Below, in pieces: positions 21,056 through 31,450 of a stretch of 64,000 bases of DNA (its first letter is position 1; every line of letters begins with the position of its first letter). The notes beneath the pieces are model-generated. The model had not been told where the DNA came from. It did not search any database and saw only the letters and a program-made list of their open reading frames with translations. The position numbers and the translations under genes were made by a program. This DNA is from an uncultured Candidatus Saccharibacteria bacterium (GTDB taxonomy: Bacteria; Patescibacteriota; Minisyncoccia; Phycocordibacterales; UBA2100): positions 45,939 to 109,938 of the forward strand of contig CAYIDD010000002.1 in the NCBI GenBank assembly GCA_964362175.1, read 5' to 3'.

Positions 21056-22483
21056 ATGGTCTTCATAGGCGACTATGAGCAACAGGGGGTGATCACCACC
21101 GGTGATGTACGGGGCATTATCTCGGGGTTTCTTCATCTTGATCTACACAAGATAATCGACGGAACGGTGGGAAACTACTGGGGCATTTCGCGCGCGCTCC
21201 AACTCAGCATTCTCTTTTGGGGATTTATGGGTATCCTGTGGATCCAGATTCCCCACCTACCACTTTTTGCGGCTCAATGGCTTCTCGGAACAGCGCCTAT
21301 TTGGATGCCTATAGTGACGCTGGTCACAACATGGAAGATCTGGCTGTGGTATTCGCGCAGCATGTATCTCTTTAAGCGGGATTCGATGCTTCTCGAGGTG
21401 AAGATGCCGCGGGACATTACGCGTTCGCCGCGGGCGATGGAAAATGCGCTCTCGAAGCTTTGGACCGACTCGGGTGAGACGACATTCCTGAACCGCGTGT
21501 GGCAAGGTCAGTGCAGACCGTATTTTTCTCTGGAAATCGCTTCGTTCGGCGGCGAGATCCATTTCTATATATGGACGTGGCGTAACTGGAGACAGGTCGT
21601 GGAGTCAATGATGTATGCATACTATCCGGAGGTCGAGCTTGTGGAGGCCGAAGATTATGCCTCGAAGTTCAAATTCGATCCGGACACGCAGGAATGTTTT
21701 CCCACCGATTGGCGCTACGAGCCGCGCAACGACGCGTATCCCATACGCACCTACGTCGAATTCGAGCTCGATAAGGACCCCAAGGAGGAGTACAAGATCG
21801 ATCCTCTCGCAGAGGTGCTTGAGCGCATGAGTGGTCTCAGGCCAGATGAACAGATGTGGATACAGATAATCATCACGATGTGCAGGGATACTCGCGCAAA
21901 AAAAGGCGGGCATTGGTGGGAAACGGAAAATCGTTACACCGCATTGATCAAAGAAGAGATCGATGTGCTTCGCAAAGAGACGACCTCTGCCGATCCGGGT
22001 GATCGATCCGCACCTGATGCATGGAAGTCAATGGCTCGCGTCCCGATGCATCGCTACACGGAATTGATCAAGGCTATGGACCGCAACATGGGCAAGCACC
22101 CCTTCAACGTCGGCATGCGCGGCGTGTATATCTCGGATGCGAAGAATTTTGCGGGGCCGGGCTATACCGGCATGCGCTGGATATGGCGCCCTGTGGGAAA
22201 TCCGCAATATATGAACCAATTGCGTCCGCGTCGCTGGGGCAACCCATTCGACTGGCCGTGGCAGGATTATAAAGACATCCGGTGGCGCCTGATGCAGCGC
22301 AGATTTTTCGATTGTTATCGCAGGCGCTCCCATTTTTATTCTCCGTGGATCATGCCGCACAATATGATGAGCACCGAGATCATCGCGACACTGTGGCATC
22401 CGCCAAGCGCCGCGATCGGCGTTCCCGGCCTTGAGCGTATTCCCGCAAAGAAGGCGGAGCCGCCATCGAATTTGCCGAAATAA
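21056..22483 (+). CDS. Hypothetical Trp-rich membrane-anchored protein (475 aa)
   Basis: Two N-terminal TM helices, then about 370 aa that are W/R/Y-rich. No Walker or other known motif. Own TAGAAT -10 box 6 nt upstream. Confidence 0.5.
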   Translation: MVFIGDYEQQGVITTGDVRGIISGFLHLDLHKIIDGTVGNYWGISRALQLSILFWGFMGILWIQIPHLPLFAAQWLLGTAPIWMPIVTLVTTWKIWLWYSRSMYLFKRDSMLLEVKMPRDITRSPRAMENALSKLWTDSGETTFLNRVWQGQCRPYFSLEIASFGGEIHFYIWTWRNWRQVVESMMYAYYPEVELVEAEDYASKFKFDPDTQECFPTDWRYEPRNDAYPIRTYVEFELDKDPKEEYKIDPLAEVLERMSGLRPDEQMWIQIIITMCRDTRAKKGGHWWETENRYTALIKEEIDVLRKETTSADPGDRSAPDAWKSMARVPMHRYTELIKAMDRNMGKHPFNVGMRGVYISDAKNFAGPGYTGMRWIWRPVGNPQYMNQLRPRRWGNPFDWPWQDYKDIRWRLMQRRFFDCYRRRSHFYSPWIMPHNMMSTEIIATLWHPPSAAIGVPGLERIPAKKAEPPSNLPK

Positions 22484-22508
22484 ATTTTTAGTGTTGTATT
22501 GGTCTGCT

Positions 22509-23543
22509 ATGCCGCATCTGAATTCGATTTTGCAAAAAGCGTTTGATAGGGGTCATGTCCTGCTCGCGCGGCTTTCAACGCATTGGAAAGAGCACACGAA
22601 CAGGAGAACCGTGGCCATCATTCTTTCTGTCGGGGTATGTGCGACATCCGCGTATCTCTTCGGCATACGCCCGCCGGACAACTTTCCCGTGAATTCGCTC
22701 GTGTCAGTTCCGGAAGGATCCTCCCTGCAGGAAGTGGCGCGGAGGCTTGAGGTCGACGGGGTCGTACGTTCCGACGCGGTCTTTCGCGTACTTATCAGCG
22801 TGATGGGGAATGCACGGAACGTGCGCGCCGGTGACTACCTCTTTAAACAGCCTCGAGATGCGTTTGGGGTCGCCTACGCGCTTTCTACGGGCGCGTTCGG
22901 TCTTGAGCCGATCAGAATACGTATTTCTGAAGGCATGATGACAAAAGAAATGGCCGCCCTGCTCGACAGACAATTTGAACGTTTCGACGCGAAGAACTTC
23001 CTCGCAGAAGCGCAGCCCCAGGAAGGATATCTCTTTCCTGACACGTATTTCTTTATGCCCAATGCGACCGAGCGAACGATCATTCAGGCAATGCGCCAAA
23101 ATTTCGACCAACACCTTTCAGAGATCGAGCTGCGCCTCGCGAGCTCAACACATTCTCTCAAAGACATCGTTATTATGGCCTCCCTCATTGAGCGTGAGGC
23201 GCGCGACCCCAAGGACCGCCGTATCATTGCTGGCGTACTGTGGAATCGGCTCGCGCGGAAGATGCCACTACAGGTGGATGTGACGTTCCTCTATACGATA
23301 GGGAAAGATACATTCCAGCTGACGACGGTAGATCTCATTTCCGATTCCCCCTACAACACCTACAAGAACAAAGGACTCCCACCGACCCCCATCGGCAGCC
23401 CCTCGCTCGATTCACTGCTCGCCGCGGCAGAACCTACGAAAAATAACTACCTGTTTTACCTTGCGGACCACAATGGCGTGACGTATTTCAGTAGAACGTA
23501 CGAGGAGCATTTGCGGAAGAAACGACTGTATCTGGGGACGTAA
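22509..23543 (+). CDS. mltG: Endolytic murein transglycosylase MltG (YceG family)
   Basis: N-terminal TM, then a YceG-like domain (DIVIMASLIEREARDPKDRRIIAGVLWNRL; LQVDVTFLY). Confidence 0.8.
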   Translation: MPHLNSILQKAFDRGHVLLARLSTHWKEHTNRRTVAIILSVGVCATSAYLFGIRPPDNFPVNSLVSVPEGSSLQEVARRLEVDGVVRSDAVFRVLISVMGNARNVRAGDYLFKQPRDAFGVAYALSTGAFGLEPIRIRISEGMMTKEMAALLDRQFERFDAKNFLAEAQPQEGYLFPDTYFFMPNATERTIIQAMRQNFDQHLSEIELRLASSTHSLKDIVIMASLIEREARDPKDRRIIAGVLWNRLARKMPLQVDVTFLYTIGKDTFQLTTVDLISDSPYNTYKNKGLPPTPIGSPSLDSLLAAAEPTKNNYLFYLADHNGVTYFSRTYEEHLRKKRLYLGT

Positions 23544-23560
23544 TAGTGTATTCTGGCGCG

Positions 23561-24616
23561 ATGACGCAAAAGGTGTTCGTAGGACTTTCGGGCGGGGTCG
23601 ATTCCGCCGTTTCGGCCGCTCTTTTGAAAGAGCGGGGGTATGACGTCGTTGGCGTATTCATCAAAATATGGCAGCCGGAATTTCTGGAATGCAACTGGAG
23701 GGAAGAGCGGCTTGACGCGATGCGCGTTGCCGCGATACTCGACATCCCGTTTCGCGAGGTGGATCTTTCCGCGGAATACAAAAAAGAGGTTGTCGACGAT
23801 ATGGTGCGGGATTATGCCCGCGGTATTACACCGAACCCCGATGTACTATGCAATCGCCACATCAAATTCGGTGCGTTCGTCGCATGGGCCACTGAAGAGG
23901 GGGCGGATCATATTGCGACCGGGCATTATGCACAGATCAGGCAACGTGAGGGCGATTTTGAGCTGTTGCGTGGACGTGATGCGGAGAAGGATCAATCATA
24001 TTTTCTTCACACCCTTGATCAAAAACAGCTGGGACGCGCGCTCTTTCCCGTCGGAGCTTTGCTGAAAAAGGACGTTCGGGAAAAAGCGCGACGGCTTGGT
24101 TTGCCTCAGGCGGAAAAACCCGACAGTCAGGGATTGTGTTTCGTGGGGGAGGTTTCAATGGCTGATTTTCTTTCGCGCTTCATACCACTCGTTCCGGGTC
24201 CCGTTCTTTTGAACGGCTCCGCAATAGGGGAGCACCAAGGGGCCGCGCTCTATACGGTGGGACAGCGGCATGGGTTTTTGACGCATCGGGCGCCGCTGCC
24301 AGGACCGTACTACATCACGCGGATCGATGTCTCCACGAATACACTCTTTGTTTCTCTCAAGCGTTCCGATGCCGCCCGCTCTTCCGTATCGCTTGAACGC
24401 ATCCACTGGATATCCCATGAGCGAACGCTCCCCCTCAAAGCCTGCGCGCAGGCGCGGTATCGTGAGCAGCCGGTCGTCACCACGCTTTCGAAAACCCCGA
24501 AAGGCATCCTCGCCACATTCGAGGAACCCCACATCATCTCTCCCGGACAATCGCTTGTTCTATATGATGCTGAGGTGTGTCTGGGGGGCGGCATCATCGC
24601 AAAGTCGCGTCTGTGA
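23561..24616 (+). CDS. mnmA: tRNA 2-thiouridylase (tRNA-specific 2-thiouridine synthase)
   Basis: PP-loop VFVGLSGGVDSAVSA, conserved catalytic Cys and a C-terminal beta-barrel region. Confidence 0.9.
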   Translation: MTQKVFVGLSGGVDSAVSAALLKERGYDVVGVFIKIWQPEFLECNWREERLDAMRVAAILDIPFREVDLSAEYKKEVVDDMVRDYARGITPNPDVLCNRHIKFGAFVAWATEEGADHIATGHYAQIRQREGDFELLRGRDAEKDQSYFLHTLDQKQLGRALFPVGALLKKDVREKARRLGLPQAEKPDSQGLCFVGEVSMADFLSRFIPLVPGPVLLNGSAIGEHQGAALYTVGQRHGFLTHRAPLPGPYYITRIDVSTNTLFVSLKRSDAARSSVSLERIHWISHERTLPLKACAQARYREQPVVTTLSKTPKGILATFEEPHIISPGQSLVLYDAEVCLGGGIIAKSRL

Positions 24617-24659
24617 ATAGCTCGACATACGGGCGTTCGCACAGGCTACAATGGAAGCG

Positions 24660-25058
24660 ATGCTATTGCGCATGATGTGGTTTACCGCGATCTCAGTGGT
24701 AATTTCTTATGGGATATATCTTTTGGTAGGGAACACGCTCTACGCACGAGCGTCGGGGGCCTACGAGCCCATTCTCGTTCGGGATGTCATCGGCCCCGGC
24801 TCGCACTATTTATCCGGCATGATCATGGTGCCGACGCCGTGCGATGAGTTGTATGTGCGGACACACGCTGTTTCGAGCACCACTTTTCTCCTTTCGTTCA
24901 AGACATGGCGGGAGCCCTCGGTTAGTTGCACGGAAGATCGGACGCCGCGACCATTTCACGCGACCTTGTTCGGGCCCGCCACGGGGGTGAACTTTGGCGC
25001 GACTCTCGATGGGGTCGGCCAGCCCATCGTGGTACTGCCTGCCGTACCCATCGAGTGA
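24660..25058 (+). CDS. Hypothetical membrane-anchored protein
   Basis: About 132 aa with an N-terminal TM helix. A TACAAT -10 box overlaps the first track ATG, so the second ATG at 24660 is taken as the start. Confidence 0.4.
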   Translation: MLLRMMWFTAISVVISYGIYLLVGNTLYARASGAYEPILVRDVIGPGSHYLSGMIMVPTPCDELYVRTHAVSSTTFLLSFKTWREPSVSCTEDRTPRPFHATLFGPATGVNFGATLDGVGQPIVVLPAVPIE

Positions 25059-25064
25059 TCTTTC

Positions 25065-25967
25065 ATGTCTCACATTTCTTCGCACGCGCAGTTACAGCCG
25101 ACACACAAGGCATCGTCTCACGGAAGAGTGCGAATGCCCGGCACGCCCAGCATACTTATTACCAAGGCGGATGGAGAGCAGGAAGCATTCGATCCCGCCA
25201 AGCTTGAGCATTCTTTGCAGCTGGCGGGCGCTTCCAGCACCATGCGCGCTCGTGTGCTCGCGCATGTCATGCGCGAATTGCGTCCCGGCATGATGACGGA
25301 AGACATCTACCGCCATGCGTTCGACATTTTACGTCGCGAGGAAGTGACGCCGGTCGCAGCCCGCTATTCCATCAAACGCGCGGTTTTTGCACTTGGCCCT
25401 TCCGGATTTCCTTTCGAGCAATTTTTGGCGGAAGTATTGCGCGCCCATGGATGGAAGGCGCAGACAGGTGTCGCGCTCATGGGACGCTGCGCTCCGCACG
25501 AAGTGGATGTGTTCGCCGAGAAGGGCGACAAGCGGATCGGTATTGAGGCGAAATTCCATAACGATGCGGGTGGCAAAACGGACATCAAGGATGCGTTGTA
25601 TGTGCACGCGCGATACGAGGATCTCAAGAAGACGCCACTCGCCTCTTCACGTGTAGACGAGGGATGGCTTGTCACGAATACACGTTTTACGCGCAACGCC
25701 ATCCGCTACGCGCAGTGTGCGGGACTCACGCTTCTCGGATGGGATTACCCCCGAACCCGAGGGCTACTCACGCTTATCGAGGAGGCGCGAGTGCATCCGC
25801 TGACCTGTCTCACAACGCTCACGGAAAATGAAAAACAGAGGCTCTTGGAACAAAAGATCGTTTTGTGTAAGCACGTCCAAACTCCGCACATTCTTCGCGA
25901 ATTCGGCGTGAAGCCTGACCACATCCCCAAAGTGTTGGAAGAGGCGAGACAGTTATGCGGTATCTGA
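25065..25967 (+). CDS. ATP-cone domain fused to an Mrr-like restriction endonuclease catalytic domain
   Basis: N-terminal ILITKADGEQEAFDPAKLEHSLQLAG (ATP-cone). Central HEVDVFAEKGDKRIGIEAKFHN (D-x(n)-E-x-K Mrr_cat core). The start may be the downstream ATG at about 25134. Confidence 0.6.
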   Translation: MSHISSHAQLQPTHKASSHGRVRMPGTPSILITKADGEQEAFDPAKLEHSLQLAGASSTMRARVLAHVMRELRPGMMTEDIYRHAFDILRREEVTPVAARYSIKRAVFALGPSGFPFEQFLAEVLRAHGWKAQTGVALMGRCAPHEVDVFAEKGDKRIGIEAKFHNDAGGKTDIKDALYVHARYEDLKKTPLASSRVDEGWLVTNTRFTRNAIRYAQCAGLTLLGWDYPRTRGLLTLIEEARVHPLTCLTTLTENEKQRLLEQKIVLCKHVQTPHILREFGVKPDHIPKVLEEARQLCGI

Positions 25968-26026
25968 TTGAGCACAATCACCTACTGGGTGATAGAATAC
26001 GCGGTATGAGAGGAGCTACTGTATTC

Positions 26027-26509
26027 ATGGATCCGACGTTCGTGATGTTCGGGAAGTTGCTTCTTGCAATGGTGCTCGGCGGGATCATTGGTACGGAGCG
26101 CGCCGTGCTCGCAAAGCAATCCGCGGGAACGCGGACCTTCGGTCTTGTATCACTCGGCGCATGCCTCTTCGTCATCACCGGAAACTACGTCGACAGCGTA
26201 TATCTAGGCGTCGTCAACTTCCAACCGATGCAGATCGCCGCAGCTGTCGTCACAGGCATCGGATTCATCGGCGCCGGACTCATCATATTTCGCAATGACG
26301 CCGTACACGGCGTCACCACCGCTGCAGGCCTTTGGATCGCCGCCGGCGTCGGAGTCGCTGTGGGATTCGGCCTGTATGCAGTTGCCGCATTCGCGACCAT
26401 ACTTTCGCTCATCATGTTCACGGGTATGTGGTACGTCGAAAATCGGTTTAAGCATTGGTTTGCAGAGCATGCGCCGGATATACGCGAGACAGGCCCCTCA
26501 AGCCCATAA
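26027..26509 (+). CDS. MgtC/SapB-family membrane protein
   Basis: LLLAMVLGGIIGTERAVLAKQSAGTRTFGLVSLGACLF matches the MgtC N-terminal signature. Start ambiguous (ATGs at 25955, 26003 and 26027). Confidence 0.65.
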   Translation: MDPTFVMFGKLLLAMVLGGIIGTERAVLAKQSAGTRTFGLVSLGACLFVITGNYVDSVYLGVVNFQPMQIAAAVVTGIGFIGAGLIIFRNDAVHGVTTAAGLWIAAGVGVAVGFGLYAVAAFATILSLIMFTGMWYVENRFKHWFAEHAPDIRETGPSSP

Positions 26510-26532: not shown

Positions 26533-27318
26533 ATGAGTTTGTTTAAAGCCTATAATCCCAACAGAAGTGCTGATTGGAACTACGGGGGCAACAAGTGGCG
26601 CCTCTCGCGCTCAAAGATCGATCTTTACATCGAGTGTCCGCGTTGCTTTTATCTCGATAATAGGCTCGGCACCGGACGGCCGCGTGGTCCTGCATTTACC
26701 CTCAACGTCGCGGTCGATGCGCTTTTGAAAAAAGAATTCGATGTGCATCGTGCCGCTAAGGAAGCGCATCCACTGATGACAAAATACGGTGTTGATGCGG
26801 TGCCGTTTGAGCATCCAGCACTCAATACATGGCGTGAAAACTTCAAGGGGCTTGAGCACAAGCATGAGACCGGTCTTACTGTCTCGGGCGCAGTGGACGA
26901 CGTTTGGGTCGATCCAAAGGGTAATCTTATCGTTGTCGACTACAAGGCAACCTCCAAAAACGGCACCATCGAAACACTTGCGGATTCCTCGTGGGAAGAG
27001 CAGTACAAACGGCAGATGGGCGTGTATCAGTGGCTTTTGCGCAAGAATGGCTTCTCCGTATCGGATAAGGGCTACTTCGTGTACGCGAACGCAAGCTCGG
27101 ACAAAGAGGCTTTCGATGGCCAGCTCGAATTTGAAGTGACGCTTGTTCCGTGTGAAGGGAGCGCCGATTGGATAGACGACATCCTTCCAAAAATCAAGGC
27201 ATGTCTCGACGGCGACGATCTACCAGAAATCGGACGATACTGCGAATTTTGTTCGTACCGCGAAGCTGCCGGCAAAAAACTGCAGGATCTCGTGAAGAAA
27301 CAAAAGAAACCCTCATGA
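26533..27318 (+). CDS. Cas4-like PD-(D/E)XK nuclease with a 4-Cys Fe-S cluster motif
   Basis: N-terminal CPRCFY and C-terminal CEFCSY cysteine pairs. VVDYKATSK (D..K) and QMGVYQWLL (Q..Y) nuclease motifs. Confidence 0.65.
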   Translation: MSLFKAYNPNRSADWNYGGNKWRLSRSKIDLYIECPRCFYLDNRLGTGRPRGPAFTLNVAVDALLKKEFDVHRAAKEAHPLMTKYGVDAVPFEHPALNTWRENFKGLEHKHETGLTVSGAVDDVWVDPKGNLIVVDYKATSKNGTIETLADSSWEEQYKRQMGVYQWLLRKNGFSVSDKGYFVYANASSDKEAFDGQLEFEVTLVPCEGSADWIDDILPKIKACLDGDDLPEIGRYCEFCSYREAAGKKLQDLVKKQKKPS

Positions 27319-27566
27319 TTTTCTCCGAAAAAGTCCGCGCGATCATCAGCAAGATTCCCAAAGGGAAATCAATGACGTACAAGGAAGTTGCCGCAAAGGC
27401 GGGAAATCCAAAAGCGGCGCGGGCGGTGGGTGCCATCATGCGCTCCAATTACAACCGTGATATCCCGTGCCATCGTGTCGTGCGCTCCGACGGCTCGCTT
27501 GGAAGCTACAACAGGGGTGGTACTGTCCGGAAAAGAGAACTTCTGAAAATGGAAGGCGCCTTATAA
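27315..27566 (+). CDS. Mini MGMT/Ogt-family methylated-DNA--protein-cysteine methyltransferase DNA-binding domain protein (83 aa)
   Basis: IPCHRVV active-site motif. Its ATG overlaps the stop of the upstream nuclease gene as ATGA. Confidence 0.75.
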   Translation: MIFSEKVRAIISKIPKGKSMTYKEVAAKAGNPKAARAVGAIMRSNYNRDIPCHRVVRSDGSLGSYNRGGTVRKRELLKMEGAL

Positions 27567-27630
27567 AAAGTTCAGCCCCCGCGAACGCCGCGGAGACTGA
27601 AGTCGTTGGCCGGTTGTCCGGCGAATGGAA

Positions 27631-28202: not shown

Positions 28203-29378
28203 ATGTCAAACGAGCAAACCGTTGGTCAGTTCGCCAAAGCTCATCCGGAAATACGGACACCGTACTATCTCATAGACGAATCACTACTTCTGAAGAATCT
28301 TGAAAAGATCAAATACGTACGCGAAAAAAGTGGTGCGAGGTCGGTTATGGCACTCAAATGTTTCTCGACATGGTCAGTCTTCCCGCTCATGAGCAAATAC
28401 ATGGACGGGACCACGTCGAGTGCGCTTTATGAGGCACGACTCGGGCATGAGAAATTCGGAGGGGAGACACAGGCGTACAGTGTGGCGTGGTCGCAGAAAG
28501 ATATCGATGAAGTAAAAACATTCGCCGACAAGATCATATTCAACTCCATTTCGCAGCTGGACCGTTTCTACGACGAGGTGTCCTCCGGAGGAGGATCCGC
28601 CTCCGGCGGAAAAGGCATGAACATCGGCTTGCGGGCCAATCCCGGTATCAGTTACTCCCACTTCGATCTCGCTGATCCCGCTCGCAAGGCAAGCCGACTC
28701 GGTGTGAGAGACATCGCCGCAGTCGAAAAAGTTGCCGACAAAATACGGGGCCTGATGTTCCACGTAAACTGCGAGAACACGGATTTCGATGCTTTCTCGA
28801 AGATAGTCGACCAGATAGGTGAGAAGTACGGGTCGCTTCTCAAAAAAATGGAATGGGTGAGCCTCGGAGGCGGTATAGCGTTTACAAATGAAGGATACCC
28901 GCTCGACAAATTTTGCGAACGACTGAAAAAATTTGCGAACGACTACGACGTGCAGGTATATCTCGAGCCGGGTGAAGCTTCGGTCCTCGGTTCGGGTTTC
29001 TTGGTGACGCAAGTTCTTGATGTTGTGAAGAACGAGGCCGACATCGCCATTATCAATGCTGCCGTCGAGACTCACATGCTCGACAATCTCGTCTATCATG
29101 AAGATGCAACGCTCGCCAACCCCCAAAAGGGTCCCCACCGCTTCATGGTCGCCGGTAACACGTGTCTCGCGGGCGACGTATGGGGGACCTATGACTTGCC
29201 CGAACCGTTGAAGGTCGGTGATTATGTCGTGTTCGACAATGCGGCGCGCTATACAATGGTCAAGATGAGCTGGTTCAACGGTGTGCAGATGCCGAGTATC
29301 GTCGTGAAGCGGCTCGATGGAAAAGTTGACGTGGTGCGGGAATTTACATACGATGACTTCCGTAAAAGCCTGTCGTAA
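28203..29378 (+). CDS. nspC: Carboxynorspermidine/carboxyspermidine decarboxylase
   Basis: N-terminus TPYYLIDESLLLKNLEKIKYV...ALKCFSTWSVF; PLP-dependent fold III decarboxylase, 391 aa. Confidence 0.8.
   Translation: MSNEQTVGQFAKAHPEIRTPYYLIDESLLLKNLEKIKYVREKSGARSVMALKCFSTWSVFPLMSKYMDGTTSSALYEARLGHEKFGGETQAYSVAWSQKDIDEVKTFADKIIFNSISQLDRFYDEVSSGGGSASGGKGMNIGLRANPGISYSHFDLADPARKASRLGVRDIAAVEKVADKIRGLMFHVNCENTDFDAFSKIVDQIGEKYGSLLKKMEWVSLGGGIAFTNEGYPLDKFCERLKKFANDYDVQVYLEPGEASVLGSGFLVTQVLDVVKNEADIAIINAAVETHMLDNLVYHEDATLANPQKGPHRFMVAGNTCLAGDVWGTYDLPEPLKVGDYVVFDNAARYTMVKMSWFNGVQMPSIVVKRLDGKVDVVREFTYDDFRKSLS
28581..28615 (+). repeat. Palindromic mini-element copy 2, in-frame in nspC (encodes SSGGGSASGGKG)
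   Basis: TCCTCC-gga-GGAGGA-TCCGCC-tcc-GGCGGA-AAAGG, two tandem perfect 6-bp hairpins. Confidence 0.7.
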
Positions 29379-29392
29379 TCCTGACATCAGAA

Positions 29393-30757
29393 ATGAAGCC
29401 AAATGTTCGACTGAGCGTTGAGCGAAGAAGTACTGAGGCCAGCAGGCCGAATGTACTGATCGTGGGTGCCGGAGCCGTGGCCCACGTAGCGGCTCACAAA
29501 GCCGCGCAGAACAATGATGTTCTAGGGGATATTTGCATCGCGACACGCAAACGCGCTAAAGCGGACAAAATAATCGAAAGCATCAAGCGTAAAAAGAGCA
29601 TCAAGGATAAAAAGGGAAGGATATATTCCCGTGAAGTGGATGCGATGAATATTCCGGCGATGGTGAAGCTCATCAAAGACACCAATTCATCAATTGTCAT
29701 CAATCTTGGTACCGCGTACATCAATATGTCGGTCTTGGAGGCGTGCATCCGCGTCAGATCTGTCGGCGGTTGTCCGGTGACCTATATGGATACCGCCATC
29801 CACGAGGACCCGACCAAAGTCGCCGAGGATCCGCCATGGTATGCGAATTACGAGTGGAAAAAGCGCGCCGCATGCAAAAAGGCAGGCATCAACGCCATTC
29901 TCGGCGTCGGATTCGATCCGGGTGTCGTGAACGCCTATGCCGCGCTTGCGGTGAAGCATTACCTCGACAAAATAGACAGCATCGATATTCTGGACGTAAA
30001 CGCTGGCACGCACGGCCGGTACTTCGCGACCAACTTCGATCCCGAGATCAACTTCCGCGAGTTCAAGAAAGTGTGGACGTGGATAAACCGCAAGTGGGTG
30101 GAGCGCCCCGTGCACAGTGAACGATGGGATTACACTTTTCCGGTTGTAGGCTCACGCCCCGTCTACCTCAACGGCCACGACGAGCTACACTCGCTCTCAA
30201 AAAACATCAAAGCAAAAAGTATTCGCTTCTGGATGGGCTTCGGCGACCATTACCTCAATGTTTTCGGAGTTCTCCGCAATCTAGGGCTTCTTTCGGAAAA
30301 GCCAGTCATAACAGCCGAGGGGGTGAAGGTGGTACCGCTCAAGCTCCTCAAAGCGGTGTTGCCGGACCCCGCATCACTCGCGAAGACCTACACGGGATAC
30401 ACCTGCATCGCCGATCTCGTAAAGGGGTGGTATGACGGCAAGTGGCGCGAAGTGCTCATCTGGAACAACTGCGACCATGCGAAGTGCTACAAGGAAGTTG
30501 AGTCACAGGCTATCTCATACACCGCTGGCGTGCCGCCCATCGCGGCTGCAATGCTCGTGGCAAAGGGGATCTGGAACCCAAAAACTATGGTCAACGTCGA
30601 GGAATTGGACCCCGACCCGTTCTTGAAACTTCTGGGAAAGATAGGGTTGCCGACAAAAGTGAAAGACATCACTCCAAAGAACGGCAAACCAAGTAAGGAC
30701 GGCATGCCCGCCTCGGCTGCCAAATCCAACAGCATCAAGACACACTACGTGTGGTAA
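29393..30757 (+). CDS. Carboxynorspermidine synthase/dehydrogenase (saccharopine dehydrogenase family)
   Basis: Rossmann VLIVGAGAVAHVAAHK. Saccharopine-dehydrogenase-like C-terminal region. Adjacent to nspC. Confidence 0.75.
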   Translation: MKPNVRLSVERRSTEASRPNVLIVGAGAVAHVAAHKAAQNNDVLGDICIATRKRAKADKIIESIKRKKSIKDKKGRIYSREVDAMNIPAMVKLIKDTNSSIVINLGTAYINMSVLEACIRVRSVGGCPVTYMDTAIHEDPTKVAEDPPWYANYEWKKRAACKKAGINAILGVGFDPGVVNAYAALAVKHYLDKIDSIDILDVNAGTHGRYFATNFDPEINFREFKKVWTWINRKWVERPVHSERWDYTFPVVGSRPVYLNGHDELHSLSKNIKAKSIRFWMGFGDHYLNVFGVLRNLGLLSEKPVITAEGVKVVPLKLLKAVLPDPASLAKTYTGYTCIADLVKGWYDGKWREVLIWNNCDHAKCYKEVESQAISYTAGVPPIAAAMLVAKGIWNPKTMVNVEELDPDPFLKLLGKIGLPTKVKDITPKNGKPSKDGMPASAAKSNSIKTHYVW

Positions 30758-30760
30758 TCC

Positions 30761-31450
30761 ATGAATAATGAAGCACGGGAGGCGGATGTGAAAATAGAGT
30801 CTTCGTGGAAAGCAGTGCTCAAAGATGAGTTTGGACAAGATTACTTCAAGGCGCTCACAGAATTCGTCAGAGGCGAATATCAACACACTATCGTCTATCC
30901 GCCGCCGAAAAGTATTTTTCGCGCGTTCGAGCTTTGCCCGTTCGATAAAGTAGAGGTCGTCATTCTCGGCCAAGACCCGTACCACGGCGCTCACCAAGCC
31001 AACGGCCTCTGCTTCGCCGTAAGCGAAGGTGTGCCCCTGCCGCCGTCGCTGCAGAATATTTTTAAGGAGATAGCGGGCGATTTGGGACAAAAATTGGTCC
31101 ACAAAACAGGGGATTTGGAGCGCTGGGCCAAACAAGGAGTCCTGCTTCTCAACGCCACACTCACAGTGCGTGCGCGCACGGCGGGTTCGCACCAAGGGAA
31201 GGGATGGGAGGAATTCACCGACGCGGTCATCCGCAAACTTTCCGAAGAGCGTGAGGATCTTGTCTTCATCCTCTGGGGCAACTACGCCAAATCCAAAGGC
31301 GCGCACATCGACCGCGCCAAGCATCGTGTCATCGAATCTGCCCACCCCTCACCCTTTTCAGCATCAAACGGCTTCTTCGGCTCAAAACCTTTCAGCAAAA
31401 CCAACGACTATCTGGTGGAGCACAACAAAAAACCGATTGAGTGGCTATAG
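30761..31450 (+). CDS. ung: Uracil-DNA glycosylase, family 1
   Basis: GQDPYHG water-activating motif and HPSPFS leucine-loop motif. Confidence 0.9.
   Translation: MNNEAREADVKIESSWKAVLKDEFGQDYFKALTEFVRGEYQHTIVYPPPKSIFRAFELCPFDKVEVVILGQDPYHGAHQANGLCFAVSEGVPLPPSLQNIFKEIAGDLGQKLVHKTGDLERWAKQGVLLLNATLTVRARTAGSHQGKGWEEFTDAVIRKLSEEREDLVFILWGNYAKSKGAHIDRAKHRVIESAHPSPFSASNGFFGSKPFSKTNDYLVEHNKKPIEWL

What the first reader, a model, noticed from the sequence alone, without database searches (positions are those of the whole stretch)
26533..27566. Cas4-like Fe-S nuclease translationally coupled (ATGA overlap) to a mini MGMT/alkyltransferase-like protein
The nuclease has Cas4/AddB-type CxxC...CxxC cysteine pairs plus D..K and Q..Y motifs. 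Its stop overlaps the start of an 83-aa PCHR-motif protein; PCHRVV is the O6-alkylguanine transferase active site. Alkyltransferase-like proteins are known to hand lesions to nucleases (ATL to NER; the archaeal AGT-EndoV fusion). A Cas4-like partner is not a described combination. There is no CRISPR array or other cas gene nearby, so this is not a CRISPR adaptation module.
Basis: partly seen in the sequence, partly recalled or inferred. Interest (0 to 1): 0.55.

Follow-up and report, generated by a model that had tools for sequence, protein, structure and literature searches.

The report
Repair nuclease plus mini alkyltransferase operon
A Cas4-like nuclease gene and a very small O6-alkylguanine alkyltransferase gene really do overlap in this Patescibacteria genome and stay neighbours in many relatives, but the evidence points to two ordinary DNA-maintenance genes sharing a compact housekeeping operon rather than a new lesion hand-off system.

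Summary
A 261-aa PD-(D/E)XK/Cas4-like nuclease (26533-27318) overlaps by ATGA an 83-aa MGMT C-terminal-domain protein with PCHRVV (27315-27566). There is no CRISPR array and no cas gene. The host is a Patescibacteria (Paceibacteria) bacterium.

The pair is conserved: MGMT lies directly downstream in 51 of 80 related species, the Cys is kept in 50 of 51, and 28 of 51 junctions overlap.

The proposed ATL-style hand-off is not supported.
- The small protein keeps the full AGT catalytic set, so it looks like a minimal suicide alkyltransferase, not an ATL.
- The adjacency sits inside a longer syntenic housekeeping string (MltG-MnmA-Mrr/ATP-cone-MgtC-nuclease-MGMT-UDG).
- The nuclease persists without MGMT in 29 of 80 loci and in all 10 remote-clade contexts.
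- No fusion was found among 270 family proteins.
- The two genes do not co-evolve specially.

Mildly new points: a stand-alone C-domain AGT, and a CxxC...CxxC cysteine arrangement instead of the Cas4 1+3 pattern.

The parts
26533..27318 (+). Solo Cas4-like / PDDEXK_1 nuclease, 261 aa
26635..26646 (+). N-terminal C35-P-R-C38 (first CxxC of the predicted metal or Fe-S staple)
   Evidence: Invariant in 21 close homologues. C35 in 116 of 120 and C38 in 114 of 120 divergent representatives.
26896..26901 (+). D122-D123 (RecB motif II acidic residues)
   Evidence: D122 in 119 of 120, D123 in 117 of 120.
26938..26946 (+). D136-Y-K138, the (D/E)xK catalytic motif
   Evidence: D in 116 of 120, K in 119 of 120.
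27013..27027 (+). Q161-x3-Y165 (RecB-family QhxxY motif)
   Evidence: Q in 115 of 120, Y in 119 of 120.
27241..27252 (+). C-terminal C237-E-F-C240 (second CxxC); no Cys at +5/+6 as in Cas4/AddB
   Evidence: C237 in 114 of 120, C240 in 116 of 120; sequence read.
27315..27318 (+). ATGA start/stop overlap of nuclease and mini-MGMT
   Evidence: Read directly. The same 4-nt overlap occurs in 14 of 51 related loci and some overlap in 28 of 51 (start codons chosen heuristically).
27315..27566 (+). Mini-AGT: stand-alone MGMT C-terminal domain, 83 aa
   Evidence: PF01035 E=1.1e-28, full domain; TIGR00589 E=3.7e-22; human AGT E=6.5e-14. AF2 pLDDT 82.8, TM 0.86-0.88 to AGT C-domains.
27465..27482 (+). 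P51-C52-H53-R54-V55-V56 active-site motif (human P144-C145-H146-R147)
   Evidence: Across 51 neighbouring homologues: C 50/51, H 51/51, R 51/51; also Y22(Y114) 51/51, R36(R128) 51/51, N45(N137) 49/51, Y65(Y158) 49/51, E80(E172) 47/51.
27571..27601 (.). 14-bp GC-rich hairpin between the MGMT stop and the convergent GNAT gene; likely end of the transcription unit
   Evidence: Terminator-like site; the T-run is on the minus strand.
22431..26509 (+). Upstream co-directional housekeeping string: MltG/YceG, MnmA, 135-aa hypothetical, Mrr_cat+ATP-cone protein, MgtC. Gaps range from -13 to +34 nt
   Evidence: Pfam. Junctions. Conserved in 44, 63, 21, 65 and 39 of 80 related loci.
30761..31450 (+). Family-1-type uracil-DNA glycosylase, the usual downstream neighbour of the nuclease/MGMT in relatives
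   Evidence: PF03167 E=4e-17. Present in 52 of 80 loci. It directly abuts the nuclease where MGMT is absent, median gap 3 nt.

Best explanation
These are two separate DNA-maintenance enzymes, co-transcribed at the 3' end of a long, compact, lineage-conserved housekeeping operon of Paceibacteria.

The 83-aa protein is a minimal O6-alkylguanine-DNA alkyltransferase. It is the C-terminal domain only, but it has the complete DNA-binding, base-flipping and Cys-His-Glu catalytic apparatus. It most likely repairs O6-alkylguanine by direct, suicidal alkyl transfer to Cys52 (inferred). Translation probably starts by termination-reinitiation at the ATGA overlap, because no GGAGG-like ribosome-binding site precedes it (inferred from the sequence).

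The 261-aa protein belongs to a CPR-wide solo Cas4-like subfamily. It has a RecB-type D...DxK...QxxxY active site, and a CxxC...CxxC metal or Fe-S staple tying its N- and C-terminal helices together. By fold analogy with Cas4, Dna2, Exo5 and MGME1, it most likely acts as a Mg/Mn-dependent 5'->3' single-strand DNA exo/endonuclease in end resection or flap processing. This would be independent of the alkyltransferase (inferred).

Shown: domains, motifs, synteny, junctions. Inferred: the activities and the absence of a physical partnership.
For: Domains and folds.

AGT catalytic residues are conserved in 47-51 of 51 neighbours.

The whole block MltG-MnmA-(hyp)-Mrr/ATP-cone-(MgtC)-nuclease-(MGMT)-UDG is syntenic. 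Mrr is present in 65 of 80 and MnmA in 63 of 80, both more often than MGMT at 51 of 80.

MgtC, an unrelated membrane protein, sits in the same tight string.

Where MGMT is absent, UDG abuts the nuclease with equally tight junctions: median 3 nt, 5 of 16 overlapping.

Roughly 20 of 44 same-strand junctions in the window are <=10 nt, and at least 3 others are 4-nt overlaps.

In 10 contexts from divergent family members, MGMT is never adjacent. The neighbours there are RsmE, PIF1 helicase, RarA/MgsA, Res/Mod and others.

There were no MGMT hits among 270 nuclease-family proteins. The extended ones carry NUDIX or HD domains instead.

Nuclease-MGMT distance correlation is r=0.51, against 0.78-0.85 for MGMT or MnmA versus Mrr. 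The nuclease tree is incongruent with its neighbours.

No promoter-like site lies before the nuclease, and a strong hairpin follows MGMT.

Solo Cas4 is already known to be common and vertically inherited in CPR genomes (PMC5704561).
Against: The nuc->mgmt junction is the tightest in the block: median -4 nt, 28 of 51 overlapping, 48 of 51 within 160 nt. Insertions accumulate between MGMT and UDG rather than between nuclease and MGMT. So co-expression of this particular pair appears to be under some selection.

A C-terminal-domain-only AGT might need a partner to replace the stabilising N-terminal domain. The review says the N-domain enhances activity and DNA binding.

AGT-nuclease (EndoV) fusions exist in archaea.

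No biochemistry exists for either subfamily.
Confidence: 0.62

Rival explanations
1. The reader's idea in corrected form, a functional partnership. The mini-AGT binds or repairs O6-alkylguanine and cooperates physically with the Cas4-like nuclease. The nuclease could substitute for the missing N-terminal domain. Alternatively it could process lesions the mini-AGT cannot reverse, or remove stalled or alkylated AGT-DNA complexes, analogous to ATL-NER or AGT-EndoV.
For: Immediate same-strand adjacency in 48 of 51 MGMT-containing loci, with overlapping stop/start in 28 of 51. This is the tightest junction of the block. MGMT stays with the nuclease rather than with UDG when insertions occur. There is precedent for C-domain-only AGT fused to an endonuclease (PMC10779285). 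The nuclease N-terminus (residues 1-22) is invariant in the close clade yet predicted disordered, as expected for a partner-binding segment.
Against: The nuclease keeps its full signature without MGMT in 29 of 80 close loci and in 10 of 10 remote contexts. No fusions were found in 270 proteins. Distance correlation is weaker than with unrelated neighbours, and the nuclease gene has a different phylogenetic affinity from MGMT in this very window. The same tight junction forms with UDG when MGMT is absent. The genome is generally compact.
Confidence: 0.2
2. The mini-MGMT is not an active transferase. Without the N-terminal domain it is a damage sensor or DNA-binding factor despite retaining Cys, so it is functionally ATL-like and signals to excision repair in general rather than to this nuclease.
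For: The architecture (single C-domain, 83 aa) matches ATLs. TM is 0.88 to S. pombe Atl1. One relative (L073) has PFHRV instead of PCHRV. The N-domain is reported to enhance activity and stability.
Against: The Cys, His, Glu, Asn-hinge, Tyr and Arg positions are conserved in 47-51 of 51, which would not be maintained in a pure sensor. [quoted passage not shown] C-domain-only AGT modules are active in fusion proteins.
Confidence: 0.12
3. The region is a defence or mobile island, with the Cas4-like nuclease acting in anti-phage defence alongside the Mrr-like protein.
For: Weak PADLOC Cas4 profile hits (E=2e-11) and a marginal ZorD Mrr-nuclease hit for the upstream protein. Some remote family members sit next to Res/Mod genes or phage terminase.
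Against: The block is core and syntenic across many families, flanked by MltG, MnmA, DnaB, RecR and AlaRS. The nuclease is 60-80% identical across the class. There are no repeats or cas genes. Solo Cas4 evolves like ordinary vertically inherited genes.
Confidence: 0.04

Closest known systems
Solo Cas4 / pfam12705 Cas4-like nucleases of CPR and DPANN genomes (Hudaiberdiev et al. 2017, PMC5704561)
   Same: Stand-alone ~250-aa RecB-fold nuclease with a cysteine cluster. No CRISPR-cas nearby, small-genome host, vertical inheritance, function uncharacterised.
   Different: That paper reports no MGMT neighbourhood. This subfamily has a 2+2 CxxC...CxxC pattern plus family-specific invariant D62, K66, D70, R73 and W100.
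Characterised Cas4 (SSO0001 4ic1, Pcal_0546 4r5q, Cas4-Cas1 7mi4) and the Dna2 / Exo5 / MGME1 / AddB / AdnA nuclease domains
   Different: Sequence identity is only 11-22%. There are no PDB hits by sequence or profile. TIGR00372 scores 34 bits against a cut-off of 65. The cysteine spacing differs, and there is no Cas1/Cas2 or helicase partner in this window.
O6-alkylguanine-DNA alkyltransferases (human AGT/MGMT, E. coli Ogt and Ada-C, M. tuberculosis OGT)
   Same: The C-terminal domain is 38-47% identical, TM 0.85-0.87. The PCHRV, Asn hinge, Tyr114, Arg128, Tyr158 and Glu172 equivalents are present.
   Different: It lacks the whole N-terminal domain, at 83 aa against 165-207 aa.
Alkyltransferase-like proteins (S. 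pombe Atl1, E. coli YbaZ/ATL, V. parahaemolyticus vpAtl)
   Same: Single-domain architecture without the AGT N-domain; same fold (TM 0.83-0.88).
   Different: ATLs replace Cys with Trp/Ala, lose the Asn hinge and carry a C-terminal extension loop. None of these applies here.
AGTendoV / ATL-EndoV fusions of archaea (Ferroplasma acidarmanus) and C. elegans AGT-2
   Same: An AGT C-terminal module working without the canonical N-domain and linked to another DNA-acting module.
   Different: Those are covalent fusions to EndoV or a histone-like domain. Here the genes are separate, the nuclease is PD-(D/E)XK, and no fusion was found.

Membership tests
PDDEXK_1 (PF12705) RecB-like nucleases | Profile score above the curated cut-off | tested here: met
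   55.4 bits vs 22.
PDDEXK_1 (PF12705) RecB-like nucleases | Catalytic D...(D/E)xK plus QxxxY motifs | tested here: met
   D122, D136-x-K138 and Q161...Y165 are invariant or present in >=95%.
Cas4 (CRISPR-associated, PF01930 / TIGR00372) | Profile score above the curated cut-off | tested here: inconclusive
   PF01930 scores 23.7 vs 22.7, barely above. The TIGR00372 equivalog scores 34 vs 65, which fails.
Cas4 (CRISPR-associated, PF01930 / TIGR00372) | Four-Cys cluster arranged as one N-terminal Cys plus C-x2-C-x5-C | tested here: not met
   The family has C35-x2-C38 ... C237-x2-C240 with no Cys after C240. The canonical pattern is from established knowledge of the SSO0001, Pcal_0546 and AddB structures.
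Cas4 (CRISPR-associated, PF01930 / TIGR00372) | Encoded with cas1/cas2 or a CRISPR array | tested here: not met
   No repeats in 64 kb. All neighbours are housekeeping genes.
Cas4 (CRISPR-associated, PF01930 / TIGR00372) | Fe-S cluster actually bound; 5'->3' exonuclease activity | not testable with these tools
   Needs UV-vis/EPR, metal analysis and nuclease assays.
O6-alkylguanine-DNA alkyltransferase (AGT/Ogt) | PF01035 C-terminal DNA-binding/active-site domain | tested here: met
   E=1.1e-28, profile positions 2-81 of 81. TM 0.86-0.87 to human and M. tuberculosis AGT.
O6-alkylguanine-DNA alkyltransferase (AGT/Ogt) | PCHR acceptor cysteine with the His-Glu relay, Asn hinge, Tyr114 and Arg128 finger | tested here: met
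   C 50/51, H 51/51, E 47/51, N 49/51, Y 51/51, R 51/51.
O6-alkylguanine-DNA alkyltransferase (AGT/Ogt) | N-terminal AGT domain | tested here: not met
   The protein is 83 aa and starts at the position equivalent to human residue ~93. The homologues are 76-113 aa.
O6-alkylguanine-DNA alkyltransferase (AGT/Ogt) | Stoichiometric alkyl transfer to Cys | not testable with these tools
   Requires purified protein and an O6-meG or benzylguanine substrate.
Alkyltransferase-like (ATL) proteins | No N-terminal domain | tested here: met
   83 aa, single PF01035 domain.
Alkyltransferase-like (ATL) proteins | Active-site Cys replaced by Trp or Ala | tested here: not met
   PCHRV in the window and in 50 of 51 relatives. 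Criterion from PMC10779285.
Alkyltransferase-like (ATL) proteins | Asn hinge lost; C-terminal extension loop present | tested here: not met
   N45 is conserved in 49 of 51. The protein ends 3 residues after the Glu172 equivalent.

The most novel reading that the evidence does not exclude
In Paceibacteria the 83-aa C-domain-only alkyltransferase and the CxxC...CxxC Cas4-like nuclease form a two-protein repair unit. The nuclease would supply the missing N-domain function or excise lesions or AGT-DNA adducts flagged by the mini-AGT. With UDG downstream, the three would make a compact base-damage operon that partly replaces missing repair pathways in reduced genomes.
Probability: 0.12. Interest if true: 0.65.

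Novelty: new variant of a known kind. Interest (0 to 1): 0.3.

Why it matters
As a supposed new repair system it matters little. Comparative genomics places the pair in an ordinary housekeeping operon, and both genes are already annotated generically in public records as 'PD-(D/E)XK nuclease family protein' and 'MGMT family protein'.

Two side points have some value. First, if the 83-aa protein is active alone it would be the smallest known AGT. That would show the N-terminal domain is dispensable in a natural stand-alone protein, and would offer a scaffold less than half the size of SNAP-tag. Second, the nuclease is one of the most conserved proteins in this CPR class (60-80% identity across families). 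It belongs to the uncharacterised solo-Cas4 group that is over-represented in small genomes. Its function bears on how these reduced genomes process DNA ends.

Tried and rejected
- PDB sequence and profile searches with the nuclease found nothing meaningful. Only fold comparison placed it.
It was replaced by a profile search plus 10 contig look-ups.
- I looked for Rosetta-stone fusions. Ten extended family members have NUDIX, HD or no extra domain. phmmer of the mini-MGMT against 270 family proteins found none.
- Literature searches found no paper linking ATL/AGT to Cas4-like nucleases and nothing on stand-alone Cys-bearing C-domain AGTs.
- The defence-island reading was rejected because of the core synteny and housekeeping flanks.
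- CRISPR association was rejected.
- I considered treating the ATGA overlap as special. It is common in this genome, although the nuc->mgmt junction is the tightest in the block across relatives.
- I could not inspect model coordinates, so convergence of the four Cys in 3D was not verified.
- I could not check whole genomes for MGMT copies encoded elsewhere, or for full-length Ogt.

Full report
**Observation.** The region holds two overlapping + strand ORFs.
- ORF 1 (26533-27318, 261 aa) matches PF12705 PDDEXK_1 (E=1.1e-14). It only marginally matches Cas4 models: PF01930 scores 23.7 bits against 22.7, and TIGR00372 scores 34 against 65.
- ORF 2 (27315-27566, 83 aa) is a complete PF01035 MGMT C-terminal domain (E=1.1e-28) with PCHRVV at residues 51-56.
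- The two share ATGA at 27315-27318.
- No tandem or spaced direct repeats exist in the 64-kb window. The neighbours are housekeeping genes: RecR, DnaB, MltG/YceG, MnmA, MgtC, UDG, an M16 peptidase and AlaRS.

**Organism.** Both proteins have 100% matches annotated from Patescibacteria MAGs. The 80 genome loci recovered come from Paceibacteria lineages: Kaiser-, Adler-, Nomura- and Yonathbacteria and unnamed Paceibacterota.

**The nuclease.**
- It is unusually conserved. Identity is still 73% at rank 120 of the hits and 55-80% across 80 species-level genomes.
- A profile search of 1.84 billion cluster representatives found 2153 members (E<=1e-3), of which 335 had E<=1e-30.
- Across 120 divergent representatives at 32-54% identity, these positions are present in about 95%: C35, C38, C237, C240, D122, D123, D136, K138, Q161, Y165, and the family-specific D62, K66, D70, R73, W100.
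- It therefore forms a well-defined subfamily with a 2+2 CxxC...CxxC arrangement, rather than the 1+3 arrangement of Cas4, AddB, Dna2 and Exo5.
- By analogy it is a metal-stapled 5'->3' ssDNA exo/endonuclease.
- This fits the 'solo Cas4' class that Hudaiberdiev et al. found over-represented and vertically inherited in CPR and DPANN genomes and left functionally uncharacterised. They report no MGMT context (PMC5704561).

**The mini-MGMT.**
- Its best PDB sequence match is human AGT (E=6.5e-14, residues 11-81 aligned to 103-173). S. pombe Atl1 is much weaker (4.6e-8).
- The model (pLDDT 82.8) superposes on AGT C-domains at TM 0.85-0.87 with 38-47% identity, and on ATLs at TM 0.83-0.88 with 35-36% identity.
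- Across the 51 homologues that neighbour the nuclease, the human-numbered positions are kept as follows: Y114 51/51, R128 51/51, N137 49/51, P144 51/51, C145 50/51, H146 51/51, R147 51/51, Y158 49/51, E172 47/51.
- According to the 2023 review (PMC10779285), ATLs are defined by loss of the Cys (Trp/Ala), loss of the Asn hinge and a C-terminal extension loop. None of these applies here.
- The same review notes that the N-terminal domain stabilises AGT and enhances activity but 'is not strictly required'. It cites C-domain-only modules in AGTendoV and C. elegans AGT-2.
- The protein is therefore best described as a stand-alone AGT catalytic domain, not an ATL.
- At least 120 clusters (90% identity) of 83-122-aa relatives exist.

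**Is the pair conserved?**
- Yes, within one lineage. In 51 of 80 loci the mini-MGMT lies downstream on the same strand, and in 48 of these it is immediately adjacent.
- With heuristic start calls, 28 of 51 junctions overlap: 14 by 4 nt, others by 17-32 nt. The median distance is -4 nt, the tightest junction in the block.
- No case is a fusion.

**Is that more than background synteny?** Largely not.
- The whole string MltG-MnmA-(135-aa hypothetical)-Mrr_cat/ATP-cone-(MgtC)-nuclease-(MGMT)-UDG-(M16 peptidase) is conserved. MnmA is in 63 of 80 loci, Mrr/ATP-cone in 65, UDG in 52 and MltG in 44.
- MgtC, a membrane protein with no DNA role, sits between two nucleases. It overlaps its upstream neighbour by 13 nt and lies 23 nt before the nuclease. 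Tight packing here therefore does not imply shared function.
- Where MGMT is absent, UDG abuts the nuclease just as tightly: median 3 nt, 5 of 16 overlapping.
- In the window, roughly 20 of 44 same-strand junctions are <=10 nt, and at least three others are 4-nt overlaps.
- No sigma-70-like site precedes the nuclease. A 14-bp hairpin follows MGMT at 27571-27601. The pair is simply the 3' end of a gene string starting at about 21-22 kb.

**Beyond the lineage.**
- A profile of divergent family members retrieved other CPR groups (Kerfeldbacteria, Pacebacteria) and one entry labelled Pacearchaeota.
- In ten contig look-ups of mutually 61-79% identical members, MGMT was never adjacent.
- The neighbours were RsmE (with UDG about 1.5 kb upstream on the other strand), NUDIX/Germane, PIF1-type helicase, RarA/MgsA (adjacent once, 1.2 kb away once), radical SAM, Res-helicase/N6-MTase/NucS-like, and a ParB-MTase/terminase region.
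- Ten C-terminally extended family members carry NUDIX, HD_4 or nothing recognisable. phmmer of the mini-MGMT against all 270 family proteins held found no hit.

**Co-evolution.**
- Per-gene identities show that the window's Mrr/ATP-cone, MgtC, MGMT and UDG are closest to Kaiserbacteria-like loci L029/33/43/65/68, at 72-91%. Its nuclease is only 60-67% identical to theirs.
- The nuclease is 73-80% identical to those in a different set of loci, whose Mrr is only about 40-46% identical.
- Pairwise-identity correlations are 0.51 for nuclease-MGMT, against 0.82 for Mrr-MGMT, 0.78 for MnmA-MGMT and 0.85 for MnmA-Mrr.
- The nuclease gene thus has its own history, either in-situ replacement or a rate shift, and it does not track MGMT. 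This argues against an obligate co-adapted complex, though not strongly.

**Conclusion.**
- Best explanation (about 0.6): two independent repair or maintenance enzymes share a compact operon. The mini-AGT acts by direct reversal. The nuclease acts on DNA ends or flaps.
- The corrected partnership hypothesis keeps about 0.2, because of the exceptionally tight and insertion-resistant nuc->mgmt junction and the missing N-domain.
- A non-catalytic sensor role for the mini-MGMT gets about 0.1.
- A defence role is unlikely.
- What is new is modest: a natural stand-alone C-domain AGT, and a 2+2-Cys solo-Cas4 subfamily. Both are widespread in CPR, generically annotated and uncharacterised.

Noticed in passing
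window 25065-25967 (+): A 300-aa protein combining an ATP-cone (PF03477, just under the cut-off), an Mrr_cat restriction-endonuclease-like domain (E=1e-9) and a weak AF1548-like C-terminal match. It lies upstream of the nuclease in 65 of 80 related loci, more consistently than MGMT. A nucleotide-sensing domain on an Mrr-like nuclease in a core operon is unexplained.
   Followed up: partly
window 26533-27318 vs loci L001-L080: The nuclease phylogeny is incongruent with its neighbours. The window's flanking genes are closest (72-91%) to Kaiserbacteria-like loci whose nuclease is only 60-67% identical. The nuclease is 73-80% identical to loci whose Mrr is about 40-46% identical. This suggests in-situ gene replacement or a strong rate shift.
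   Followed up: partly
window 26533-26598 (nuclease residues 1-22): The N-terminal segment YNPNRSxDWNYGGxKWRLSRSK is invariant among close homologues but predicted disordered (pLDDT <50 for residues 1-15). It is not conserved in divergent family members. It may be a lineage-specific interaction motif.
   Followed up: no
window 28203-30757 (+): A PLP-dependent decarboxylase and a saccharopine-dehydrogenase-like gene, which look like a carboxynorspermidine decarboxylase/dehydrogenase polyamine pair, are inserted between MGMT and UDG here. The same insertion occurs in only 3 of 80 related loci (L029, L065, L069).
   Followed up: no
L073:4803-5123: One relative has PFHRV instead of PCHRV and a divergent C-terminal half. 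It is either a degenerating gene or an independent ATL-like conversion.
   Followed up: no
L085/L086, L087, L089; proteins P0244, P0262: In other CPR clades the same nuclease family sits next to a PIF1-type helicase or RarA/MgsA. It is occasionally fused to a NUDIX or HD domain. These hint at a replication/recombination role.
   Followed up: partly
window 27571-27601: A 14-bp GC-rich hairpin lies between the convergent MGMT and GNAT genes. The T-run is only on the minus strand, so it may act as a shared terminator.
   Followed up: no
window 21056-22483 (+) and 24651-25058 (+): A 475-aa ORF and a 135-aa ORF in the same gene string have no Pfam match. The 135-aa ORF is conserved in 21 of 80 loci, between MnmA and the Mrr/ATP-cone gene.
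   Followed up: no
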